Shown here in pieces: positions 12,800 to 59,565 of a stretch of DNA of 64,000 bases. Position numbers and translations under genes: made by a program. How positions within the stretch are numbered: the first letter of the stretch is position 1; each line of letters starts with the position of its first letter. The stretch lies in assembly GCA_964016885.1 (NCBI GenBank), contig OZ024740.1, positions 111,476,001-111,540,000 of the forward strand. Reading direction: 5' to 3'. This stretch comes from Eledone cirrhosa. Lineage: Eukaryota. The notes under the pieces were generated by a model. The model did no database searches. It saw nothing but the letters and a program-made list of their open reading frames with translations, and was not told the DNA's origin.

Positions 12800-15700
12800 A
12801 CAACAACAACCATTGAGCTCACCCCCGTAACGTTTTGCTCTCATGCGTGGAGTTCTTCCTTACCCTGTTTCTTTGTGTAAGTGTATGTATGTATGTGTGT
12901 ATGTTTTCTCTTTCTCTTAATTTCGAGTATATTTTTTTGACCGGCCACCTTCCTGGTGGCAAGGTTGTAAAAGAAAAGAAATTGTCATCCCTTGAATCGC
13001 AAGAATGTTTTGCAAATTTTGAAGGTGCCAGCTATCGCAGCCATTTGTAGACTATGAATTAGGGAGCTGCGCTTTTTGTCCGCAAATCCAAGTTCAGTCA
13101 TACTTTGGTCCAAGCGGGTTGGTATATAACCCGTAGCACCAATAATGATGGGTATGAAGCTAAAGGTGTATCTTGGATACTGGATTTGTAAACTCCTCAT
13201 CAATGGTCCGTAGATGTCCTCCTTCTCCTGTATTTTTCTGACAACTTTTACATCAAGTGGGCAGCTGATCTCCACAACAGAACACGTTTTCAATGTGTGG
13301 TCCCAGACTACAATATCAGGCCGGTTGTGCTTTAATTTGGTGGCAGTTTTTATTTTCAGGTTCCACCAGTATTCCTTAGTGCCATCTGTCTTAATATATT
13401 CTTCCTCGTTTGTTGTTAATTTTGTTTTCCGAAGTGCGTTCCAGATGGTTCCAGCTATCCCATCGTGTCTCATGGGAGGTAGTAGCGAGATGACATTCTT
13501 TCGCAGCTGGCAACAATGTGGCTTACATCCTCGATCTTTGTTTTACATAGCCTACATTTATTGTCAGCTGCTGGCCCTCCTCTTTTGTGCAGCAGATATT
13601 TGGTAGGGAGTTCTTGTTCCTGTATTGTATAGAGATATCCCTCAAGGTGTGATGTCATAAACTTGTCGGAACTCCATGCCAGGCTTTTTGAGTGGTTTAT
13701 CCCCTCTATGGTCTGTGTTTTACGCCTCAAGTATCCATGCACAACTTTTTCTGTAAATTGGTCAATTTTTTTATCTTGTTTGAACATTGAATAGGATCTT
13801 CCGATTTCTCTGGGTGAGAGATTTATATCAGGCTTTATTCCATATCTCTCCTCCAGATCAGTCGCTATTCTAATGATATTTCTTTTTTCATGCTCATAAA
13901 CCTGGGCAAGATGGTTGCCAACCTTTTTCCTCTGTTGAAGGTCTTGCTTCAGTGTTACTATCCGGGTCTCATATGTTGTTAATATTGATTTTAGACCCCG
14001 GCCACCTTCCTTGCGTGAGAAGTATAGCCTATCCACATCACCATTGATGTTAAAGTTCCCAGTAATACTGAGAAGTTTTCGAGTTCTAACATTCATCTCA
14101 CTTAGTTCTTGCAATGACCAGTTCAGTAGGCCAAATGTTGGCGTTAGAATTGGCACAGCATAAGTAATGTGGGCAATGTATTTGTTGTATGCTGACAGTT
14201 CTGATGACCATATTTTCTTTACTCTTCTGAGGTATTCAGTTCTGGTTCTCTCCTTATTTATGGGTCCATCATATCTGACATTCTCATCCTGTCCAAGATA
14301 TCTGTAGTTGTCACCTGACTGCAGAGGTTGTATTGTCAGGCCGTTCATCTCTAGATTTCTAGAGGAGAGCACAGCTCTTCCACGTTTTACTGCCAAATAT
14401 GCACACTTGGACTCACCAAATTTCATTTTGATGTCGGTTGAAAATTGTGTAATGAGGTCCAATTGTTTCTTGATGTCATTGATATTTGGCCCATACAACT
14501 TCAGGTCATCAACAAAGAAAAGATGGGAGATACTTCTGGGCCCACTTCTTTGTCCACCTTGTTTCCTGAGTAGGTAAGATAGTGGATTCAGTGAGAGAAC
14601 GAAGAGTAGCACTGACAAGCTATCACCCTGAAAGATGCCCTTCTGGTAATGTATCTTATCAGTCTTAACCTGCTCCTTCTCACCTCTAAGGATCAAATTG
14701 GTGTACCAGTTCTTGGTCAGGCGTTCAACAGCAGCTACCAATGGTTGTGGGACTTTAGCTAACTGTAAAGCCTTAATAATCCACCCATGAGGTACACTAT
14801 CGAATGCTTTTTGATAGTCCAGCCACACGACAGTCATGTTTCTGCGATTCTTTGTTGTTTTTTCATGAATCATTTTGTTAGTTAGTAGGTGATCTATGCA
14901 ACCCCACACCTCCCTCTTTCCACCAGCTTGCTCAGGTGTTATGATTTTGTTGGTAGCACAGTGATCCTGTAAGAACAGGTTAAGGCACCCAGTATATAAT
15001 TTATACATGATGTTTTGGCAGGCAATTGGGCGGTAATTTTTAGCAAGGGTGGTTTGGCTATTTTTGGGAATGAGGAGAGTAGTGGCAGTTTATAACCATC
15101 TGGGCAGTTCTTCTGTGCCCTTAATGGTTTCTGTAAACAGCCGTATGAGATCTTGCCGATAGAAAGTGAAATTCTTCAACCAGTATCCTGTAATGAGGTC
15201 TGGGCCTGGCGATTTCCTATTCGACATTTTCTGTAGAGCTGTTTCCAGTATTGATCCATCTATGTCATATTGTTTTGTCTGGACATGTTGGCTGTAGTCC
15301 TGTTCCAGTTCTTTTAGCCAATTAGCTTGTCTGTTGAATCCGTCATCCGTTTCCCATACAGATCTCCAGTAGTTCTCAACCTGTTCTTTTGAAGGGGTGT
15401 CGTTTAGAGGGATTGAGCTTTTGCCACCTAAGCTGCGATAAACTGATTTAGGATCTCTGGCAAACAATCTATTTAGCACTTGTCGTTTATGTGCTGTTGA
15501 CTTATATTTTAGTCTTTCTGTTGTAGCTGTGAGTTGTTTCAACTGGTGTAATTTGGAGTTCAAAGTTTTAAATTTTGTATCTCCAAATCGTCTCTCTAAC
15601 TTTTTCTTTAGGTCTTCCTGGTGTCGTGTGAAGTTGCTCTCTATGTTGCATTTCATAACGACTGCGATGTGTGAAATACTTCGTCTCAGGGACAAAATTT

Positions 15701-33702: not shown

Positions 33703-35745
33703 CACTACTTTTGTTTTGCCTAAAAGTATCATAAGCCGCTTATTCATAAAATATGGCTTTTCAGGTGAGCCATCATTTGTTTTAAGATCTTCCAAGACAG
33801 TGTATCTACTGCCATGTCATACACATCGAAGAAGAGCGACGCTATGAAGTAGGTACCAATAACAATTATTATCATTGGAACCAGATGAAAGTTGAGCTGT
33901 ATAACATCAATATATTCTTTTATTCTATTATTATATTTTTGATAAAATATGAAATAAGAGAAAAAGACAGCAGCACACACAATCATAAGTTGATTCATTA
34001 GAAGAACAAAGCTGGTTGAGTTGTTAACGATGACAGTCCTAAAAATATTATGCACTAACAATGAGAAGGCGTCTTTGGCAGAGGTATAAAAGTTTTTGCC
34101 ATGAACAGCAATCATTATGTAAGCATTCTTGTTCATGAATTTCAAGAATACTTCAAAACACCAGAAGCAGCATTTCATACATTTCAGCACATATTTAGCA
34201 AATGGATTTTCAACATTCTCTAGTTTGCGCCCAAGAAAATCCAAAAATATTCGAATCATCTTAACAAGAGCAATAATCAGGGAACCATACGCCAAGGAAC
34301 CTAAATGATATCGTAAACATCTCCAAAATGCCTTTAAGAGAGGGAAGCTCGGAATGTCTTCAGGTTTGTCAAAAGCCCAATAATAAGAAGCAAATGCTCC
34401 AGCCAAAGTTAGTTGAGCCATTGCAGATACGAAATTCCTTAACCAGAAGAACATAAAAAAGGCATAGAATTGAAGATAAATTGTGTATGACTCCATACTT
34501 TTCATGAAATAACAGATATTAATTTGTTTGGTTGTTGTATTTTTGCACAATCCAAGTGTTTCCATAGTATTTTCAATATGATCGCTGGTAGAATTCAAGT
34601 TAAGCTCGACTGATTTGTAAATGCTATAAAGATGAATTGTTATTGCAAGCCACAAGTAGATAATACCAGTTTGTAAGATGAACGGAATAATTGGCCATAT
34701 CAATGTAGACTTAATATGGCCAACAGCTCTGCTTCCTTCTTTGATCAATTCTATTGCAATCTTAATACGAGACATGAGTATCAGAAATATAAATAGGAAA
34801 ATAGTAAATATAATTCCAGTAATGATACATATCCATAAATACAATATTGCTTTGTTAAATGTATACGGAAGTGGATTCAATACAAAAGTGATGCTCTCAC
34901 CAGATTCCTTCGCAATCGTATACTTCCAAAGAGACAGTCCACAACCCATAGCAAGTAAGCCCAAGAAAGTAATCATCCCGTACCATATTATCACACCTGC
35001 CACCCATCGCATTATAATTATCAACACTTGGCAAGCACATGTTGCAATAAGCAAACAAATTAAGATTATCCACCAGGACACCAAAATATCACTTATTAGT
35101 TGTTCTGCATAAGCCTTGGTTTTAAGTATACCCTCGATATTAATTGCTGCTCTTCTCAGCTCATCGTTTTTCACGGTTTTAATTTGAATGTTGCTACCAA
35201 TTTCAATAATATCAGGAACACATCTCTTTATGATTTCTATGGACTTAACTATATATTGGGGCAATCATTTATACCTTGTTCTGTGCAATATTGTTCTGGG
35301 GAAGATTGTGTTTCCGTAGGACACTGTTTAACACAAATCTGTGGTGTGAGACATCCGATTAGAAAGCTGAGAGGGGAATACATCGTGTGATATCTGAGAA
35401 AAAAAGATTAGTTTTATTCTTCATGATACCATATCCACATAAATTATTCTCAGAATCCATAGGGTAAAGTAGAAGAGTGTAGTTTCCTTTGACAAAGGCA
35501 AAAATGGCAACACCAGCAAAACCCAAAAGAAAGAGGAAGAACATCAGGCAGAATATGATGTCGGTACATGACCTGTCTGTGACAGGTCCTGGAAGCGGTA
35601 ACTCAGATTCATCAAATTCATCAAATTCATCAAACTCATCAAACTCATCAAATTCATCGAACGATTCCTCTTCTTCGTCACTTGGTTCTTCACTGTTATC
35701 AAGGTCATCAAGCGGTTCCTCTTCTTCGTCATTTATAGTTGCCAT
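33470..35745 (-). pseudogene. Intronless choline transporter-like protein (SLC44/CTL, CTL2/4-like) retrocopy with frameshifts
   Basis: Family motifs RSCTDIIFC, YPMDSENNLCG, CLTPQICVKQCP, LAGAFASYYWAFDKPEDIP, RYHLGSLAYGSLII, CCFWCFEVFLKFMNKNAYIMIAVHGKNFYTSAKDAF, VYDMAVDTL..LED...NDGSPEKPYFM are collinear without introns. Frame breaks at ~35362, ~35260 and ~33797. Confidence 0.88.
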
Positions 35746-44332: not shown

Positions 44333-47300
44333 TAACAACTAACAGTGCTGCGATCGAATGTGGCTTTTTAGCCCAGCCAATGATCTACAATGTCTTGCAC
44401 AGAGTCGGCAACCAAAACATTCACTGGGAATAGTCGGCTGTGGTTGGAGTTCGTGTACTTTTGCATGTCGCTTGAGCCCTCCTGCTGATTTACATTCTCT
44501 ACCACATGTTTGGAAAGCATGATGAGTAGCATCTCCAACAGCAGCCTGGTAGTCAACCACTGGTCTTACTTTATGACTGCGAAGATGACTTTCGAGTCCA
44601 GCTTTGCTTAGGCAGAGTCTCGCACAGACGCTGCATGTCAGCACCATAGGAGGATCCTCGCCGTCTGGAAGTGCAACAGCAATGCCCTTCCTCACAACCC
44701 GCATTACTTTCTCGTGTGCGATTCGAGACGCCTCAAAGGCAACTTTTCCCTCATATACAGTCTTTCTCCATTTATTACGATCAGCAGCAATATTTTCCCA
44801 TGTATCAGCAGAGATGTTAGCGTCTTTCAGAGAGTCTTTCAAGGAATCCTTATACCTCTTTTTTGGTTTATGTGGTGGTCGTTTTCCTTTAACCAACTCT
44901 CCATAGAAGAGTTGTTTTGGTATTCTAGAATCCTTCATCCTGGCAAGGTGACCACTCCAACGGAGTCGTTGCTTAAGCACAAGAGCTTCTATACTGTCAC
45001 ACATAGAGCTTTCCAAAATCTCGACATCACTGATGTGGTCCCTCCAGTGAACGCCATGGATCCGTCTGAGACACATCTGATGGAAACGCTCCAATTGCTT
45101 AAGGTGGTGTCGATATGTGACCCAGGTCTCGCAGGCATAAAGAAGACAAGAGAGTACACATGCCCTGTACACATTTACCTTTGTCCTCCTGCATATGTCT
45201 CGCCGACCCCAGAGTCGCCTTTCTAGCTTTCCGAAAGCATCACTTGCTTAAGAGACCTCTTGTATGCAGATGATTGCGATCTTGTAGCGCACACATAATC
45301 CTAAGTGAGATTTCACTGTCAAGGTTGCCGTATCGATTGACAGTGCTTCCCAGGTAGACAAACTGATCAACCACTCCAAGTCGTTTGCCATACACATAGA
45401 TGTTTGGTTCAGTGTACTGCTTACTAGGGGCAGGTTGGTACATGACGACGGTTTTCTTGAGACTGACAGTCAAACCCAGGGCAGTGCAAGCGTCAGAAAA
45501 TGCATTCAAAATGTGCTGCATATCACTCTTTGTGTGCGCTACAAGATCGCAATCATCTGCATACAAGAGGTCTCTTATGATTGATGTAAATACCTTTGTC
45601 TTCGCAGCAAAGCGCCTGATGTTAAATATGCTGCCTGAGGTTCGATATCGGATGTAAACACCATGCTCGCAATTCCTGAATGCAATATAGAAAACCATTG
45701 CAAAGTATATGGCAAACAGGGTCGGTGCTGGAATATCCCCCTGTTTCACTCCATTTTTTACTGAGATAGGCTCCGACATGTTACCTCCGACATTAACCCA
45801 AGCCTTCATGTCGTCATGGAAAGACCTAACTAAAGCAAGGAACTTATCAGGGCAACCAAGTTTCTGGAGAACCTTCCATAATGCCTCTCTGTTGACAGTA
45901 TCGAAAGCCTTTGTCAGATCGACAAAAACCTGATACAGATCCAAGCCTTGTTCAATGCACTTCTCCTGGAGCTGTCTAGCTGAAAAGATCATATCAGTAG
46001 TGCCGCGTCCAGCACGAAAACCAGATTGACTTTCAGGAAGAACACAATCTGCAATGTGTGTCAGCAGACGGTCCAGAAGCACCCTACATAAAACTTTCCC
46101 TACGACAGAAAGCAATGATATACCTCTATAGTTCCCACAATCGTTCCTGTTACCCTTTCCCTTGTACAAGACCACCATTACTGCATCTCTCCAGTCCTCA
46201 GGTACGGATTCATTAGCCCATATCCTTCCAAACAAAGAGTGCAGATGTTGCAGGAGTCTCTCACCACAATATTGTAGGAGCTCAGCATGTATGCCATCCA
46301 TACCTGGAGATCTCAAAACTGTTCAGCTTCGAAATAGCCACTGCAACCTCCACAAGGGTCGGAGGTTCTGCGAGAGCTATTTTCACAGGACTTTCTGGAA
46401 TGAGATTGAGGAAATCTTCACTGACGACAGACGGCTGATTCAAAAGATCATCAAAGTGCTCTCGCCACCTTCGTAGAATTCCTTGTGAGTCACGAAGAAG
46501 TTCTTTGCCATCCTTGCTGCGAAGCGGTGTCACCAGAGAAGAAGACGGTCCATAAACCTCACGCAAGAGACTGTACAACAGCTTTGTGTTATTGGAATCA
46601 GACGCAGTTTGTATCTCACCAGCCTTCTCACTCCACCACTGATCCTTCATCTGAGAAAGACTCCGCCTAACACGTGATTTTACATCCCTGAGCTCCTCAT
46701 GCAACGTATTCCTCTCCTGTGGTTTTGCCAAGTAGCGTGACAGAGCACGCCTCTTATCAGCCAACAAGTCTTCTATATGTACATCATTCTCATTAAACCA
46801 GTCCTGATGTTTTCTCTGCACCAATCCCAGAACACGCCTGCCTACATCATAAACCGACTTTTTAAGGGTCGGCCAATCCTCACCAAGATCTGCAGCCTGC
46901 ATCTCTTCTTCCAATGTCCTCTTCACATTTTTATCCTTAAGACGAGCAGCATTCAATCTTTTGGGCAGGGTAACACCAGGAGCCCGGATTTTACGTTTGG
47001 TGATTAGTTTCACTTTAGCAGGTACCAGGCGGTGGTCCGTCCAGCACTCAGCTCCACGAAGAACACGAACACACTGCACATCCTGTCTGTCACGCATCCT
47101 GACTAGGACGTAGTCCAAAAGATGCCATTCCTTAGATGTAGGATGCATCCATGTGGTCTTGAATTTGTTCTTTTGTTGGAACATGGTGTTGGTAACACAC
47201 AGATCCAGCTCCTCACACATCTGCAGCAGGAGCATACCATTGCTGTTACACTTTCCCACCCATGCCTTCCGATTACATTCCATGTGTTAAAATCCCTACC

Positions 47301-47870
47301 CACTCTAGCATTAAAGTCACCAAGCACGATGACTTTGTCTGCCTGAGGGATATTTCTTAGAACACCTTTCAAGGCATGGTAAAAGGACAGTTTTTCTTCA
47401 TCGACAGAATTCATAGTTGGAGCAGACACACTTACCAGGGTAGCATATCTTCCCTTGTCCAGTGGAACTCTCATGGACATAAGACGCTCACTAATCCCTA
47501 CTGGAAATTCTTCTAATTTATTCACAAGTACAGTCTTAACAGCAAATCCTACCCCAGCCTCTCTTCTGGTTCCTTCATCTCTTCCTTTCCAGAAGAATGT
47601 ATATTCTCCACAAAATTCCGTAAGATGACCATCTCCAGCTAACCTCGTCTCAGATAAAGCCACGATGTCAAGATCGTAACGTCGAAGCTCCTTTGCAACA
47701 AGAGCGTTCCTTCGTTCAGGACGCTCCAAAGAATCCCTGTCAAGCAGCGTCCGTACGTTCCAGCAGCCAAGACTAAATGCCCTGTTTGGCTCTATTACAA
47801 TGGCACGATGACGGGCGGGCCCAGGTAGTGATAACTTGGGGCCCCTGCCCTTATTGCCAATGATCTTTTT
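43911..47870 (-). mobile_element. RTE (BovB-like) LINE, near full length: APE endonuclease, RT and three C2H2 fingers; frameshifted
   Basis: EN LGCWNVRTL, DIVALSETR, GDFNARVG, TDHRLV; RT FVDLTKAFDTV, GVKQGDIPAPTLF, LLYADD; C-terminal LRWSGH..RM...PKQLFYGEL plus C2H2 repeats. The 3' terminus and (CATA)n at 43911-43966 are separated from the ORF by microsatellites. Confidence 0.95.
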
Positions 47871-47919
47871 TGTTCCAGAACCTAAATTGCCAATTATCTC
47901 GTTTACATTGTTCTGGAAC

Positions 47920-50148
47920 ATCATTGAATTGGAAAAAATAGGGGATGATTATTTACGACAGATAAAAACCCCAACATTTTGGCAAATCAACGATTGTTTA
48001 TATGCCCTAGCAACGACAGTGAAGCATTATCTTGGTGATAGCAGAGATATTAACAAAAACAGAACACCACCAAAAATACCATCATATATAACTAAAATAG
48101 AAAAAAAAGATTGCTGACCTACGAAAAACCATAGGATATGTGACAATGCTCCTTACATGCAAACAAACACAAAAAAACCTCACTCCTCCCCAACAAAGAG
48201 TGAAAAATAAAATAGAGACGATGTTTGGTAACAGTAGAACCAGAACTCTTCAATATAAGCTGATCACCCTCAAACAAGATTTGAGAGCTGTTAGCGAAAA
48301 ACGCCGATACCTGAAGAAGGTAGATGAGCGAAAAGTGCTTAATAAAAGATTCAGACGAAACCAAACATCAGTCTATAGAGATATGAAGAACAAAATAATA
48401 AGTGTGACTGAGGCCCCATCTCAGAAAGACATAGATTCCTTTTGGAGCAAAATATGGGATGAAAAGAAGAATTTCAACCAAGATGCAGTGTGGCTAAGAG
48501 AAATCCGAAAGAACTATTGCTCCTACACTACAACAAAAACATACGAAATATATGAGTGTACCCTTGAGACTGTCATAGGAAAACTCCAAGATAAGAAAAC
48601 ACCAGGAAGAGACATGGTATCTGTAATATGGAACGCGTAACCAGGGAATACTACACCCGATTAAGAAAGATCTGGTCATCGGAACTCTCTGCGCTAAACA
48701 AAACAGTGGCTCATAATGTGTTTGCTGTGCCTGTCCTAACACCAACGTTTGGAATACTCAATTGGACGATAGACGAAATCCGAGCAGCTGATGTTGGAAC
48801 TCGAAAAATACTAAACAACACCAGAAACTTCCACATCAACAGTGACATAGACCACCTTTACTTGAAACGTAAGCAGGGAGGCAGAGGCCTAACATCAGTC
48901 CAGACAACATTTGAATGTCGCATCATATCTCTCCGACAACATCTACGAAGCTCGAAGCATAGGAGCCCGTTTCACGAGCAAGTCTATCTGCATAAAACAG
49001 ATGAGATCATGAGAGTTGGGAAGGAACTACTCGAGAGATATTCCCTGTGTGATAATCAAAAACTCACACCCTGGGAAGTCGCTCAGCAGTATCGCAGTGA
49101 ATCCATGGATGAAAAACTGCATGATTATCAGCAAAAAATCATGCATGGATATGTTGCCAGGAAGCTCCAGAGTGAGAGTAATAGATAAGGAAAATAGTCT
49201 ATCTTGGACCAACAACCGCTATATTGGCTTCCACTTTGAAGGATTCACTTTTGCAATCCAAGAACAGGAGATTAACACGAAATACCTGATTCACAAAAGA
49301 GATAGGGATGCAGGCAAAACACCTAGATGTGATAACAAGTTCAAACTCTGCAGAACTAACATCGAGGATATCACCCATGTCATCAGCAGCTGTCCAAAGA
49401 TGTCATCGTGGTACTATCTACCTATGAGGCATGATGTAGTGGCCTAAACATTGTACAATGCAGTTCGTAAAAAAGATAGCCCGATAATAAACACATTAAA
49501 AGCTAGAGCAATGTGGAAGACATCCATGTACATAATATGAAAGAGTACTGGTGGAATGTTCCAGTAAAATCCCCAATAAAATGGAAGCATTACAGGACAG
49601 ATATTATGATATGGGACAGGGAGAAGAAAGCATGCACAGTAGTGGGAATTAGCTGCCCAGCAGATGCCAATATAATATCAAAGATTAGCGAAAAGGAAAA
49701 TATTTATACAGAACTGATGAGAAATCTGCAGATACTCCACCCTGATTACACCTTCAGATTTATGCCTGTGATTATTGGGGCACTGGGGTATGTTAGTAAC
49801 TGCCTCAATACAAATCTTGAGAAGCTAGGCTTCACAGGAACAGAAAGAACACAACTAGTTTGGAAATTACAAGTACAATCCATTAATGGAACAGTAAAAA
49901 TATGTAAAACATTCCAAAAATTTTGCATCTAATAACTGCATATACACATGTACAGATACAAAGCATATACACATGCACACATACAACTTAAAACATCCAC
50001 ATCCACACATACAATAACATCCATATCTACACATGCAGACATGCATACATAATCTACCTAGTTGATGTTGTGTAAATTCCTATGAGAGAGTCTTGTGTCT
50101 ATGTTAGAAACAGACTCTCTCTCTATTGGTAAAAATTTGTGAAATTAT
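47920..50148 (+). mobile_element. R4/Dong-clade LINE with the RT core deleted
   Basis: Collinear with the 12985-15905 element (KTPGRDM...W then ERVTREYYTRLRKIWSSELS; IEDITHVISSC; YRTDIMIWD...ISCPAD), but no RT motifs between ~48625 and ~48630. Confidence 0.9.
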
Positions 50149-53730: not shown

Positions 53731-55535
53731 TAAATAATCATGACGTGCAGACACAAGAGAAGGTGCACACTCGCCGCATGGAATCCACCGGAAAGCCCAG
53801 GCTAAAGGCATTCGGCGAAACGGGTTCAAGGGATCAGACACCATACCCTGATGACAGTATATGTCTCATGAGGTAAACAAAAATAACCCAGGATGCATAC
53901 CCGACTCTGCACGTCACCTTAGGCAAGAACATCACCTGAGCCGGGACAGGTTGACCTGGATTCCATTGACTTTCAGTCAAATATCTTACACTTATAGGAC
54001 AACATGCTTCAACCACAATGACATACTCCAGTGTGGCCGGTCCACGCACCCCCTTACATGTGTACCTTTTCAATCGAGAATCCTTACTCTCCACGTATTC
54101 CATTTTGGAACACATATTATTTTTTCCATATGCAGGCCCAAGTGTATATCTCATACTCCTCCTGCGTACTATCTCATACGCATACACGTCCCTTCTTCTT
54201 TATATATCTCTATGTGACGTTATATGTATATTTTTAATATATTGTATATTTCTTTTTTATATGTGTGTATATATGTATGCGTATATGTATATATGTGTGT
54301 ATATATAAATATATGTGTATATATATATATATTTATATGTGTATGTGTATGGATGTATGTATATGGTTATATTGTTTAGATTTGTGCCTGTTTACTACAA
54401 GATACAACGTTTAATGTATGACGTTATATGTATATTTTAGTATATTGTAGGTTTTTTTTTATATATGTGTATGTATGTGTGTGTTTGTACATATGTGTGT
54501 GTGTGTATGTGTATATATATATGTGTATGTGTGTATATATATATATATGTATGTATGTATGTGTATGGATGTATGTATATGGTTATATTGTTTATATTTG
54601 TGCATGTGTATAACAAGATGCATTCTTTCATGCATGACACTTTGTATGATCCATTGTGTAGCTTTATATGACTTTGTGTGTATATCATATTTGTGTATAG
54701 ACAGATATATGTATGTATCTTTGTAGACGTGCGTGGGCTTGTAGGTAATAGGCGCATATTTGTAAGAGTGTATATGAGCCAGTGTGTGTGTGTGTGTGTG
54801 TGTACGTGCACCCACTGTAGGGTAAGGGCTTGTTTGTGTGTGTGTATATATATGTGTGTTTGCGGGCGAGTTTGTTTTTGTGCCTGTATATATGGACACG
54901 TGTGTGTATGTGCGTGTGCGTGTCTATCTATATGTCTGTACGTGTTTGTGTATACGAGTAGATATATGCGTATGCATGTGTGTGTGCCTGTGTGCGTGTG
55001 TGTGTGTGTGTGTGAGCTGATGTGCGTGGGCATGTAGGCAGGCATTTGTGGACGCGTATGTCTATAGTTTTATGGGTTCTCCTTAGGTGCGTATGTATAG
55101 CCGGAGTATATGCGTAAGGACTGTTATTTATATGATTGGTGCGTGTGTGTGTGTGTGTGAGCGTGTGTATATATATATGTGTGTGTGTGAGTGCGCACGG
55201 GGACGTGTGAACTACCAAACCAAGCAAGGATTCATTGAAGTGTGGCAGGAAAAGGACAGGTGATGGTCAGTGTGACAGTACCTGTTGGTCAAAATTTATG
55301 ATGACGTAGAAAAACAACAGCCAATAGCAGGACGAGTGAAGAGGATGTTTTTTGACGCTAATACCCCAGTGAGAAATTTCATCTGAAATTATTAGATGTG
55401 TCCGACGAACCTGCAAATCCAGAAGCAGACAGACCCACACAATGATCGTGTCTCAAGCTATCTGCCGGCGAAACAATTGTAACACACAATAAATTGAGTT
55501 CTGATGCATCACTGATTTTTCGTTTTATATTATAT

Positions 55536-55598
<63 letters not shown>

Positions 55599-55720
55599 AA
55601 TATAGACATAGAATATTCGAAAATATTCTGTATGTTTATAATAAACATTTTGAAGACCTAATCGCTATAGAATAGAATACGTCACGTATTACAATTAGAT
55701 TCTCGATAAAAGCAAGGGAA

Positions 55721-55763
55721 GTAATCTACGCGTTTCATTCTTATTAGAAATCTTCAGGACTAC
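55721..55763 (-). ncRNA. Type I minimal hammerhead (also at 56031-56073 and 56341-56383)
   Basis: Reverse complement of gtagtc CTGAAGA tttct-aata-agaat GAAA cgcg TA gattac. Confidence 0.88.
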
Positions 55764-56822
55764 ATATCCAGTGCTTTTATCGAGAATGACACAGCTAGAG
55801 ACTTGTAGAATACTTAGCTGTGTACAGGAACTGGTTTGAAAGAGCGGTTGCCGGTCCGGCAGAAATTAGAAATTGGAATAAATGCTCTGAAATAGCGATA
55901 TATATGTGAATATAGACATAGAATATTCGAAAATATTCTGTATGTTTATAATAAACATTTTGAAGACCTAATCGCTATAGAATAGAATACGTCACGTATT
56001 ACAATTAGATTCTCGATAAAAGCAAGGGAAGTAATCTACGCGTTTCATTCTTATTAGAAATCTTCAGGACTACATATCCAGTGCTTTTATCGAGAATGAC
56101 ACAGCTAGAGACTTGTAGAATACTTAGCTGTGTACAGGAACTGGTTTGAAAGAGCGGTTGCCGGTCCGGCAGAAATTAGAAATTGGAATAAATGCTCTGA
56201 AATAGCGATATATATGTGAATATAGACATAGAATATTCGAAAATATTCTGTATGTTTATAATAAACATTTTGAAGACCTAATCGCTATAGAATAGAATAC
56301 GTCACGTATTACAATTAGATTCTCGATAAAAGCAAGGGAAGTAATCTACGCGTTTCATTCTTATTAGAAATCTTCAGGACTACATATCCAGTGCTTTTAT
56401 CGAGAATGACACAGCTAGAGACTTGTAGAATACTTAGCTGTGTACAGGAACTGGTTTGAAAGAGCGGTTGCCGGTCCGGCAGAAATTAGAAATTGAAATA
56501 AATGCTCTGAAATAGCGATATATATGTGAATATAGTCATAGAATATTCGAAAATATTCTGTATGTTTATAATAAAATCTAATTGTAATACGTGACGTATT
56601 CTATTCTATAGCGATTAGGTCTTCAAAATGTTTATTATAAACATACAGAATATTTTCGAATATTCTATGTCTATATTCACATATATATCGCTATTTCAGA
56701 GCATTTATTCCAATTTCTAATTTCTGCCGGACCGGCAACCGCTCTTTCAAACCAGTTCCTGTACACAGCTAAGTATTCTACAAGTCTCTAGCTGTGTCAT
56801 TCTCGATAAAAGCACTGGATAT

Positions 56823-56865
56823 GTAGTCCTGAAGATTTCTAATAAGAATGAAACGCGTAGATTAC
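56823..56865 (+). ncRNA. Type I minimal hammerhead (also at 57133-57175, 57443-57485, 57753-57795 and 58063-58105)
   Basis: Stem I gtagtc/gattac, core CUGAAGA...GAAA, stem II ttct/agaa, palindromic stem III ACGCGU, predicted GUA cleavage after 56859. Stem I is extended by a perfect 16-bp helix attctcgataaaagca/tgcttttatcgagaat. Confidence 0.9.
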
Positions 56866-58258
56866 TTCCCTTGCTTTTATCGAGAATCTAATTGTAATAC
56901 GTGACGTATTCTATTCTATAGCGATTAGGTCTTCAAAATGTTTATTATAAACATACAGAATATTTTCGAATATTCTATGTCTATATTCACATATATATCG
57001 CTATTTCAGAGCATTTATTCCAATTTCTAATTTCTGCCGGACCGGCAACCGCTCTTTCAAACCAGTTCCTGTACACAGCTAAGTATTCTACAAGTCTCTA
57101 GCTGTGTCATTCTCGATAAAAGCACTGGATATGTAGTCCTGAAGATTTCTAATAAGAATGAAACGCGTAGATTACTTCCCTTGCTTTTATCGAGAATCTA
57201 ATTGTAATACGTGACGTATTCTATTCTATAGCGATTAGGTCTTCAAAATGTTTATTATAAACATACAGAATATTTTCGAATATTCTATGTCTATATTCAC
57301 ATATATATCGCTATTTCAGAGCATTTATTCCAATTTCTAATTTCTGCCGGACCGGCAACCGCTCTTTCAAACCAGTTCCTGTACACAGCTAAGTATTCTA
57401 CAAGTCTCTAGCTGTGTCATTCTCGATAAAAGCACTGGATATGTAGTCCTGAAGATTTCTAATAAGAATGAAACGCGTAGATTACTTCCCTTGCTTTTAT
57501 CGAGAATCTAATTGTAATACGTGACGTATTCTATTCTATAGCGATTAGGTCTTCAAAATGTTTATTATAAACATACAGAATATTTTCGAATATTCTATGT
57601 CTATATTCACATATATATCGCTATTTCAGAGCATTTATTCCAATTTCTAATTTCTGCCGGACCGGCAACCGCTCTTTCAAACCAGTTCCTGTACACAGCT
57701 AAGTATTCTACAAGTCTCTAGCTGTGTCATTCTCGATAAAAGCACTGGATATGTAGTCCTGAAGATTTCTAATAAGAATGAAACGCGTAGATTACTTCCC
57801 TTGCTTTTATCGAGAATCTAATTGTAATACGTGACGTATTCTATTCTATAGCGATTAGGTCTTCAAAATGTTTATTATAAACATACAGAATATTTTCGAA
57901 TATTCTATGTCTATATTCACATATATATCGCTATTTCAGAGCATTTATTCCAATTTCTAATTTCTGCCGGACCGGCAACCGCTCTTTCAAACCAGTTCCT
58001 GTACACAGCTAAGTATTCTACAAGTCTCTAGCTGTGTCATTCTCGATAAAAGCACTGGATATGTAGTCCTGAAGATTTCTAATAAGAATGAAACGCGTAG
58101 ATTACTTCCCTTGCTTTTATCGAGAATCTAATTGTAATACGTGACGTATTCTATTCTATAGCGATTAGGTCTTCAAAATGTTTATTATAAACATACAGAA
58201 TATTTTCGAATATTCTATGTCTATATTCACATATATATCGCTATTTCAGAGCATTTAT

Positions 58259-58315
<57 letters not shown>

Positions 58316-58319
58316 AAAA

Positions 58320-58804
58320 TTAAAATTGGTGCTCTGAAATAGCGATATATATATATATGAATGTATATATAGTGTATTTTGCAATACACTGTAGGCTTAA
58401 TTAAAAGCATTTCGAAGACCTTACGTTATTGTTTTAGAGTAGTGACAGTCTCACTTACTTTAATTTTCAGCAAACAGGGGAGATAAATCTGACAGAGCTC
58501 TGTTTCGCACTTTTTGGTGCTTATCAAAGCTAACTGCTCCGCCTATTTGCTGAAAATAATGAATGTTTGATTCTTATAGAATTCTAGTAATAATCAGGAA
58601 CTGATTATACAGAGCGGTTGCCGGTCAAGTAGTTAGCTTTGATAAGCACCAAAAAGTGCGAAACTGAGCTCTGTCAGATGTATCTCCCCTGTTTGCTGAA
58701 AATTAAAGTAAGTGAGACTGTCACTACTCTAAAACAGTAGCGTAAGGTCTTCGAAATGCTTTTAATTAAGCATACAGTGTATTGCAAAATACACTATATA
58801 TACA

Positions 58805-58808
<4 letters not shown>
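58320..58808. repeat. Fold-back monomer of a related hammerhead-bearing family (arms 58358-58537 / 58629-58808)
   Basis: Shares gctctgaaatagcgatatata, gaagacct and caggaactg..agagcggttgccggtc with the 310-bp unit. Hammerhead-like motifs at 58487-58532 (-) and 58634-58680 (+). Confidence 0.85.
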
Positions 58809-58873
<65 letters not shown>

Positions 58874-58878
<5 letters not shown>

Positions 58879-59235
58879 GTTGAAAAGGTAACACACTAGA
58901 GAGAGATAGAGCGCCATCAATGAAACAGGGAAAAACCACCTGTGTATGGAATCTATAATCTATGAAAGGCAGGGTAGACACACTATAATTAAAAATATAA
59001 ATTAAAGTCTATATACAAACCTCTATAACTATATATCACACACGTACAAATCCATGGATTTGTACGTGTGTGTTATATAGTTATAGAGGTTTGTATATAG
59101 ACTTTAATTTATATTTTTAATTATAGTGTGTCTACCCTGGCTTTCATAGATTATAGATTCCATACACAGATGGTTTTTCCCTGTTTTATTGATGGCGCAT
59201 TATCTCTCTCTAGTGTGTTACCTTTTCAATATATT
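58874..59235. repeat. 362-bp spacerless near-perfect palindrome
   Basis: Centre tcca|tgga at 59054/59055; starts directly after (TA)n. Confidence 0.95.
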
Positions 59236-59565
59236 GTATTTTAAAGAGCTCAGGATTCCTTCTCCTTTGAACACATTATTGACAGGGAATAGCGAGAGTC
59301 TATGGTTCCGTTAATTTATCGTGATATATATATATATATAGTAATAATAATAAATGTGAAGACTAAAATCCGAAGAGGGCTCGATAAGGATAATATATAA
59401 AAGGAACGATCGACATTCGTCAAATCGGACGGAGGAAACAATGTTTCCATTGGTCTTTCCAATTGCTAATATAATCAATCGATCGCAACCCCAGGTAGAA
59501 GGAGAAACGTGATATAAATATCTTGCTCAAGGACATAACGCATCACCCGGTCCGGGAAAGGATAA

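What the first reader, a model, noticed from the sequence alone, without database searches (positions are those of the whole stretch)
56521..56640. Inversion junction gives a divergent head-to-head ribozyme array and a ~1-kb fold-back
Seen: at 56575 the array switches orientation with only ~1 nt of overlap (ataaa|atctaattg), just after the small hairpin atgtttat-a-ataaa. Ribozyme-sense strands point away from the junction (minus in block A, plus in block B). Established: inverted 5' segments are typical of Penelope insertions. Inference: the junction records a template switch during PLE-type reverse transcription. Read-through from either side would give both a ribozyme multimer and ~1 kb of dsRNA, a potential siRNA/ADAR substrate.
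Basis: partly seen in the sequence, partly recalled or inferred. Interest (0 to 1): 0.7.

Follow-up and report, generated by a model that had tools for sequence, protein, structure and literature searches.

The report
Two-armed retrozyme insertion, Penelope-type join
The flip in this tandem array is the central seam of a back-to-back insertion of a 310-base repeat carrying a predicted self-cutting RNA motif; most sampled copies in this animal genome have such a seam at a different spot and one arm from each of two fixed end points, so each insertion was likely copied from RNA at both cut DNA ends by a Penelope-type jumping-gene enzyme and then joined in the middle.

Summary
The junction is in the assembly as described: 3.2 units on the minus strand meet 5.45 units on the plus strand at 56575, sharing one base, hammerhead-sense strands pointing outward, both ends in (TA)n. 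It is not special to this locus. The 310-nt unit has about 1,600 insertions genome-wide (estimate). Of 85 other loci sampled on this chromosome, 70 have two arms. [quoted passage not shown] Junction phases are random, arms unequal, seams carry 1-4 nt microhomology or templated filler, and the two arms of an insertion share variants. This fits two reverse transcriptions primed from both ends of a cut in (TA)n and joined by end-joining. It does not fit a fold-back template switch, and the small hairpin is not enriched at seams. PLEs with RT and GIY-YIG in this genome show the same layout, but no partner was identified. This exact seam was not seen in other individuals' short reads; no RNA data were available, so cleavage, circles and dsRNA are untested.

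The parts
55526..55587 (.). (TA)n target, left side
   Evidence: (TA array 55526-55595)
55588..56575 (-). Arm A: 3.2 units of the 310-nt repeat, sense on minus; 5' end at u57 (seam), 3' end at the short end E1 (u107-114, inside the unit's own AT run)
55727..56377 (-). Three type I hammerhead-like cores (55757-55727, 56067-56037, 56377-56347)
56575..56575 (.). Head-to-head seam, u57 (minus) against u1 (plus), 1-nt microhomology
56562..56575 (.). Cut part of the unit's 17-nt imperfect palindrome (u54-70); not enriched at seams family-wide
56575..58264 (+). Arm B: 5.45 identical units, sense on plus; 5' end at u1, 3' end at the long end E2 (u139-140)
56829..58099 (+). Five hammerhead-like cores (56829-56859 and every 310 nt to 58069-58099); predicted cut after the GUA at 56859 etc.
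58230..58264 (+). ~35-nt tail (u106-u140) between the short and the long end, present only at this end of the insertion
58265..58300 (.). (TA)n target, right side
58318..58821 (.). Separate, older two-armed insertion of a 319-nt sister family (long end left, short end right)
58870..59325 (.). Separate two-armed insertion of a third hammerhead family; perfect palindrome centred at 59054/59055, ~85-nt tail on the right

Best explanation
The array is one insertion of a high-copy 310-nt non-coding repeat with a predicted type I hammerhead (a non-LTR retrozyme), and the seam at 56575 is likely where two separately primed cDNAs were joined. Inferred steps: a Penelope-type RT/GIY-YIG protein acting in trans cuts both strands of a (TA)n tract. 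Each 3' end primes reverse transcription on the retrozyme RNA, one at the short site E1 (u101-114) and one at the long site E2 (u139-147), about 35 nt apart and 120-160 nt downstream of the ribozyme cut site. Both enzymes run through several units of the template (a monomer circle is the simplest reading; an uncut multimer is not excluded) and stop at random points. Host end-joining fuses the two ends with 0-4 nt of microhomology or short templated filler. The head-to-head polarity, the one-sided tail and the fold-back potential follow from this geometry. Shown: layout, end pairing, seam statistics, arm identity. Inferred: enzyme, priming, circle, repair route.
For: Layout: 70 of 85 other loci fetched on C1 (0-121 Mb, chosen by one end next to TA) are two-armed. 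Of 74 minus-then-plus junction pairs examined, 70 had both ends classable and all 70 are one E1 plus one E2; none is E1/E1 or E2/E2 (one duplicated junction counts twice). The only plus-then-minus adjacency lies inside one complex seam (L058). In a sample not chosen by ends (first 100 of 2,200 hammerhead matches, 12 loci) 7 show minus-then-plus, 0 the reverse, 5 one orientation; 6 of 6 loci from the DNA search are divergent. 12 of 15 single-armed loci end at E1 alone, so E1 can be a start site by itself. 130 of 142 outer ends run into an AT dinucleotide tract of 6 nt or more. Seams: 58 of 70 scored; 41 have no filler, mean overlap 1.9 nt in 40 of them against 0.76 for random joins (0 of 20,000 simulations reach it), 17 have filler, several copied from nearby unit sequence. 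One template: arms of one insertion differ by median 0 (44 of 64 identical) against median 1.3% between insertions; 16 of 19 variants private to an insertion are in both arms. 63 of 68 E1 arms and 62 of 68 E2 arms pass a ribozyme cut site, and 3 of 136 5' ends lie near it, so the template was not a cut linear monomer. Enzyme on hand: ORFs with RT plus C-terminal GIY-YIG and a CxxC linker exist in the genome, and several sit in (TA)n as divergent arms with one short and one 40-63 nt longer end. In vitro, an anole PLE protein cuts and extends both strands and starts at two internal RNA sites that bound the tail (PMC11167929, parts 1-2 of 4 read).
Against: No autonomous partner was found: the unit gave no match inside a PLE body in 50 fetched PLE-bearing stretches (the weak matches in L145 and L180 are separate short inserts, those in L181 and L186 were not inspected base by base). 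PMC11167929 reports no difference in start site between the two strands, so it does not by itself explain the strict E1+E2 pairing. Arm lengths are correlated (rho 0.42), which two free-running enzymes need not give. Some insertions are not uniform: 13 of 123 variable columns recur in several units, L117 changes haplotype within an arm, and L063, L086, L121 and L133 show unit-specific variants, which suits a mixed linear template, two RNAs or later gene conversion better than one monomer circle. In the sister family 1 of 8 fully classable loci is E2/E2 (L218). Target-site duplications cannot be read in (TA)n. This seam is not bridged in other individuals' reads.
Confidence: 0.72

Rival explanations
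1. Template switch or self-priming (the first reader's view; self-priming on an antisense template was proposed for rotifer PLEs): one cDNA folds back at a small hairpin, or the enzyme jumps to the opposite strand, and copies the inverted arm.
For: PMC3846280 (passages) infers self-priming from palindromes at inverted junctions. This seam lies in a 17-nt palindrome. 3 of 68 insertions are nearly mirror-symmetric, 8 of 68 have phases within 10 nt (4.6 expected, p=0.09). The neighbour at 58870-59325 is a perfect palindrome. Shared variants between arms fit this too. L058 has a seam with repeated switches.
Against: A fold-back arm cannot be longer than the arm it copies, yet the E1 arm is longer in 31 of 68 and the E2 arm in 37 of 68. 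Phases are uniform and unrelated; no hairpin enrichment. The second arm would have to stop each time at the other fixed site. Two seams hold 260-272 nt of foreign sequence.
Confidence: 0.12
2. Same two-ended priming, but on two RNA molecules or on an uncut linear multimer rather than one circle ('dual priming').
For: L117 switches haplotype within one arm; L063, L086, L121 and L133 carry unit-specific variants, some mirrored between arms. PMC11167929 found uncut RNA to be the main substrate in vitro. PMC2837659 (passages) describes dual priming as hard to tell from twin priming.
Against: 36 haplotypes among 68 insertions, yet arms within an insertion nearly always match: two random RNAs would often differ unless one locus dominates expression in that cell. 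Units within an insertion differ at only about 0.6-0.9 per kb away from the seam, which suggests a one-unit bottleneck.
Confidence: 0.1
3. The inversion arose in DNA after a plain tandem insertion (recombination or replication-based rearrangement between the unit's internal inverted repeats).
For: The unit holds internal inverted repeats and one seam (L099) uses a 16-nt one. Long arms show later block duplications (L072, L089/L090).
Against: It cannot give fixed outer ends E1 and E2 at the (TA)n borders, nor one polarity only; most seams have 0-4 nt overlap.
Confidence: 0.03
4. Fold-back read or assembly artefact.
For: No listed contig or read bridges 56575; units in B are 100% identical.
Against: Arms are unequal with a 55-nt offset, end at different family-wide sites, and have unique flanks. 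Short-read contigs of another sample show 11 A-to-B joints at other phases at depth 6-40 among the 15 of 43 joints listed (sides of only 22-29 nt, so weak). Unit counts could still be off.
Confidence: 0.03

Closest known systems
Animal non-LTR retrozymes (Cervera and de la Pena 2020, PMC7229834, passages read; Li, Clavereau and Pollet 2026, bioRxiv 10.64898/2026.07.22.740005, parts 1-3 of 5 read)
   Same: Non-coding tandem unit of 170-400 nt, low GC, one type I hammerhead per unit with short palindromic stem III, self-paired monomer (z -5.05), thousands of copies, co-occurring PLEs; PLE mobilisation proposed in both papers.
   Different: Word searches of the two texts found no inverted arms or tail for retrozymes ('inverted' 0 and 1 unrelated hit, 'tail' 0 in the preprint; their supplements were not seen). 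Here most insertions are two-armed with fixed end pairs. Stem II closes with U.U (62 of 72) or A-U (10 of 72) instead of G-C. No pLTR donor found. Expression and circles untested.
Endonuclease-bearing Penelope-like elements: inverted 5'-truncated copy plus one-sided 30-40 bp tail (Craig et al. 2021, PMC8557442; Arkhipova et al. 2013, PMC3846280; passages read), PAc in vitro (Frangieh et al. 2024, PMC11167929)
   Same: Head-to-head inverted arm, ~35-nt tail on one end, AT-rich or (TA)n target, hammerhead upstream of the two ends.
   Different: No ORF; both arms are multi-unit tandem arrays; the tail is one-sided in 70 of 70 classable two-armed cases; start sites share short AT homology with the target, whereas PAc starts at a non-homologous site.
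LINE-1 twin priming and dual priming (described in PMC2837659, passages read)
   Same: Both target strands prime cDNA; the result is two divergent pieces with a short-homology internal junction.
   Different: In L1 it is an occasional event with a chance internal site, a poly(A) end and an internal deletion; here it is the usual outcome (70 of 85 sampled loci), both sites are fixed, and both arms copy the same repeated sequence.

Membership tests
Animal non-LTR retrozyme | Tandem non-coding unit of ~170-400 nt, low GC | tested here: met
   310-nt unit; no stop-to-stop frame of 120 aa over the array
Animal non-LTR retrozyme | Type I hammerhead motif in every unit | tested here: met
   8 cores in the array; 11 core positions invariant in 71-72 insertions while position 7 varies; every stem I change keeps pairing. 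With 51 of 310 positions variable, core invariance alone is not significant. No Rfam hit at gathering score. Stem II base pair is non-canonical.
Animal non-LTR retrozyme | Many dispersed loci | tested here: met
   2,200 exact core matches; 819 and 759 forward-strand end matches, i.e. about 1,600 and 1,500 ends
Animal non-LTR retrozyme | Self-cleavage of the RNA | not testable with these tools
   Prediction only; 8 of 9 predicted Xenopus dimers did not cut in vitro in the 2026 preprint
Animal non-LTR retrozyme | Expressed as circular RNA | not testable with these tools
   No RNA holder listed
PLE-type insertion | Inverted 5'-truncated arm, head to head | tested here: met
PLE-type insertion | 30-40 bp tail on one end | tested here: met
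   u106-u140, 70 of 70 classable pairs
PLE-type insertion | AT-rich or microsatellite target | tested here: met
   130 of 142 ends; partly built into how loci were chosen, since one end of each had to border TA
PLE-type insertion | Target-site duplication | tested here: inconclusive
   Flanks are simple repeats; shared words cannot be told from chance
Autonomous PLE | ORF with RT and GIY-YIG | tested here: not met
   None in or beside the array; such ORFs exist elsewhere in the genome
Non-autonomous derivative of a named PLE | Sequence homology to a pLTR | tested here: inconclusive
   No match inside a PLE body in 50 stretches fetched around GIY-YIG hits, out of 150 scored and 10,597 candidate hits

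The most novel reading that the evidence does not exclude
Penelope-type integration is by rule two-ended: a protein dimer starts two cDNAs about 35 nt apart on one RNA, one from each cut strand and always one at each site, and on a 310-nt circular retrozyme both roll around the circle to write two outward-facing arrays that the host joins in the middle. This would explain the PLE inverted arm and one-sided tail in a single step, show that retrozymes move as circles with PLE protein, and mean that each jump plants a kilobase-scale hairpin, well over a thousand times in this genome.
Probability: 0.4. Interest if true: 0.72.

Novelty: new variant of a known kind. Interest (0 to 1): 0.5.

Why it matters
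How PLE inverted repeats and tails form is named as open in PMC8557442, and published proposals differ (self-priming on antisense RNA in PMC3846280; two internal start sites in PMC11167929). Whether retrozymes are moved by PLE protein through circles is proposed but not shown. This family gives over a thousand young, nearly identical insertions whose two arms record start and stop points, so the models can be told apart by counting, and it names exact RNA positions and a target for an in vitro test. The single seam at 56575 is an ordinary example of that family rule, and other reports of this scan have already described the same family.

Tried and rejected
Rfam gathering scan: no hit. Hairpin as cause of the seam: not enriched. 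5' ends at the ribozyme cut site: 3 of 136, no enrichment. Extra mutation near seams: 0.8-1.1 per kb at 25-310 nt against 0.5-0.7 farther out; the peak within 25 nt reflects filler and alignment edges; no editing-like spectrum; not pursued. Sequencing runs: no RNA holder listed. Laying contigs of X1-X3 and X6 and RAD reads of X22 showed no record across 56575; these are other individuals or collapsed contigs, so this is no proof of absence; the opposite-strand joints of X22 are just the unit continuing. Search for a pLTR donor among 50 stretches: none. Target-site duplications: unreadable. Rows left out of counts: L058 (complex seam; its outer ends are E1 and E2), L090 and L111 (arm runs off the stretch) and L010, L012, L013 (not from the C1 sample) and the second L116 copy for the 68-insertion statistics; 12 of 70 seams without an exact anchor for microhomology. 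End classes were wide (E1 u100-116, E2 u125-150); L125 ends at u131. Literature searches listed no paper describing two-armed retrozyme insertions; only listings were seen for papers not named here, and subscription papers and supplements were not covered. PMC9977147 and bioRxiv 2024.12.14.628481 (passages) added nothing decisive. That the genome is a cephalopod's is my recall from its repeats and was not tested.

Full report
Observation. The window holds a 310-nt tandem repeat in two blocks of opposite orientation, A 55588-56575 and B 56575-58264, between two (TA)n tracts. Numbering the unit from 56575 on the plus strand, B starts at u1 and ends at u139-140; A, read on minus, starts at u57 and ends at u107-114. 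One base is shared at the seam; B's units are identical and A has two substitutions, both in the unit next to the seam.

The ribozyme. Each unit has CUGAAGA, a 4-bp stem II, GAAAC-GC-GUA and a 6-bp stem I extended by a long outer stem. The monomer folds better than 100 of 100 shuffles (z -5.05); the core alone does not (z -0.42). Stem III is a short palindrome of the kind that PMC4209133 (passages) says works as a dimer. Over 71-72 insertions the 11 core positions never vary, position 7 does, and all stem I changes keep pairing. Stem II closes with U.U or A-U, and several other hammerhead families of this genome share the U.U. Rfam finds nothing at gathering score. Cleavage is predicted, not shown.

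The family. The genome (3.0 Gb) has 2,200 exact matches to one core variant. Patterns for the two ends joined to TA give 819 and 759 forward matches, about 1,600 and 1,500 ends. I fetched all 85 other loci with such an end in the first 121 Mb of C1 (86 stretches). 70 are two-armed and 15 single-armed, one of them cut by an assembly gap. Among 74 minus-then-plus junction pairs (69 of these loci, one duplicate, the window, three), 70 had both ends classable and every one pairs a short end E1 with a long end E2. The four others are two arms that run off the stretch, one eroded end and one 33-nt arm. Most E1 ends stop at u105 and most E2 ends at u139-140, a tail of about 35 nt. Selecting by ends biases against tail-to-tail layouts; in the 12 loci listed by the core pattern alone, 7 are head to head, 0 tail to tail and 5 show one orientation.

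The seams. In 68 insertions the 5' break points are uniform over the unit (p=0.37), the two phases are unrelated (p=0.54), and 3 of 136 lie near the ribozyme cut site. Arms reach 5.9 and 8.5 kb (about 14 kb in L089/L090); E2 is the longer in 37 and E1 in 31; lengths are correlated (rho 0.42). Of 58 seams scored exactly, 41 have no filler and show more overlap than random joins (mean 1.9 nt in 40, null 0.76; one 16-nt case set aside), and 17 have filler: mostly 1-23 nt, often a copy of nearby unit sequence, and twice 260-272 nt of foreign DNA. One of these reads as the start of a LINE endonuclease frame (recognised from recall) and matches two other fetched loci at 91%. Short homology with templated filler is the known mark of polymerase-theta-type end-joining (own knowledge). 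The window's 1-nt overlap is the commonest class, with 2 nt.

One template. Arms of an insertion match (median 0 differences, 44 of 64 identical), while insertions differ (median 1.3%; 36 haplotypes in 68); 16 of 19 private variants are in both arms. Most arms run through cut sites, so the template was a circle or an uncut multimer. Uniform units favour a monomer circle, but L063, L086, L117, L121 and L133 show mixed units, and long arms show later block duplication. I put circle against linear or two-RNA templates at roughly 55:45.

The enzyme. GIY-YIG hits are abundant. Of 11 long frames scanned, 6 score for both RT and GIY-YIG, the longest of these 938 aa; 5 of the 6 frames printed have a CxxC linker before the nuclease, as PMC8557442 describes for the Neptune and Nematis clades. 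L182, L183, L186, L188, L179 and L180 sit in TA-rich tracts as divergent arms with one short and one longer end (tails about 40-63 nt). Two neighbours in the window follow the same plan: a 319-nt sister family (7 E1+E2, 1 E2+E2, 12 eroded or single among 20 loci) and a third hammerhead family with an 85-nt tail. No pLTR matching the 310-nt unit turned up in 50 stretches, so the partner is unnamed.

Mechanism. A cut on both strands of (TA)n with cDNA primed from each end gives outward-facing sense strands, 3' ends at the target borders and a central seam of two random 5' ends, as found. PAc protein cuts and extends both strands and starts at two sites that bound the tail (PMC11167929); it showed no strand preference between sites, so the strict pairing here is a further claim. 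A fold-back switch predicts mirror arms, a second arm never longer than the first, and hairpins at seams; none holds family-wide, though a few symmetric cases and the palindromic neighbour may be of that kind.

Reads and RNA. No RNA run holds the stretch. Contigs of one other sample and RAD reads of another do not show this seam, but the contigs show 11 listed joints from A to B at other phases at single-copy-like depth, with short sides. A plus-strand read-through would fold a ~990-bp duplex burying three of five ribozymes; whether it is ever made is unknown. The nearest gene-like frame found in the window, a choline transporter family hit at 33744-35264, is 20 kb away.

Verdict. Real in the assembly, one ordinary seam of a striking family rule: a retrozyme of known kind carrying the known PLE footprint in an unusually strict and countable form. 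The searches named under Tried and rejected did not list this layout for retrozymes. Earlier notes of this scan on the same family reach the same reading; I had formed mine before and do not count them as support.

Noticed in passing
window 58318-58821: Two-armed insertion of a 319-nt sister family that shares the end region but whose unit (L222) lacks a canonical hammerhead core; its sampled arrays are short (mostly 1-2 units). A natural control for whether the ribozyme is needed for long arms.
   Followed up: partly
window 58870-59325: Third hammerhead family (long stem III); perfect palindrome with no spacer, centred in loop III about 10 nt before the predicted cut; ~85-nt tail. Three such insertions side by side make this TA cluster a repeated landing site.
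   Followed up: partly
L085:980-1241 and L101:4599-4872: Foreign sequence caught between the two arms: 260 nt of a LINE-like endonuclease frame and 272 nt not identified.
   Followed up: partly
L058:2043-2220: Complex seam in which the same junction occurs twice with a 130-nt plus piece and a 43-nt minus piece between.
   Followed up: partly
L180:6190-6330, L190:2600-2930, L175, L187: Other hammerhead families of this genome share a U.U closing pair on stem II and a palindromic 6-nt stem III.
   Followed up: no
L174, L182, L183, L188 3' repeats: The PLE terminal repeats carry a hammerhead-like fold with UUGAAAA in place of CUGANGA, about 80 nt before the short end.
   Followed up: no
L089-L090 (about 14 kb arm), L072, L116: Later local growth: block duplications inside long arms, and one whole junction present twice.
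   Followed up: partly
window 33744-35264 (-): 506-aa open frame of the plasma-membrane choline transporter family without introns over this stretch; LINE RT fragments at 13470-15089 and 45240-47948.
   Followed up: no
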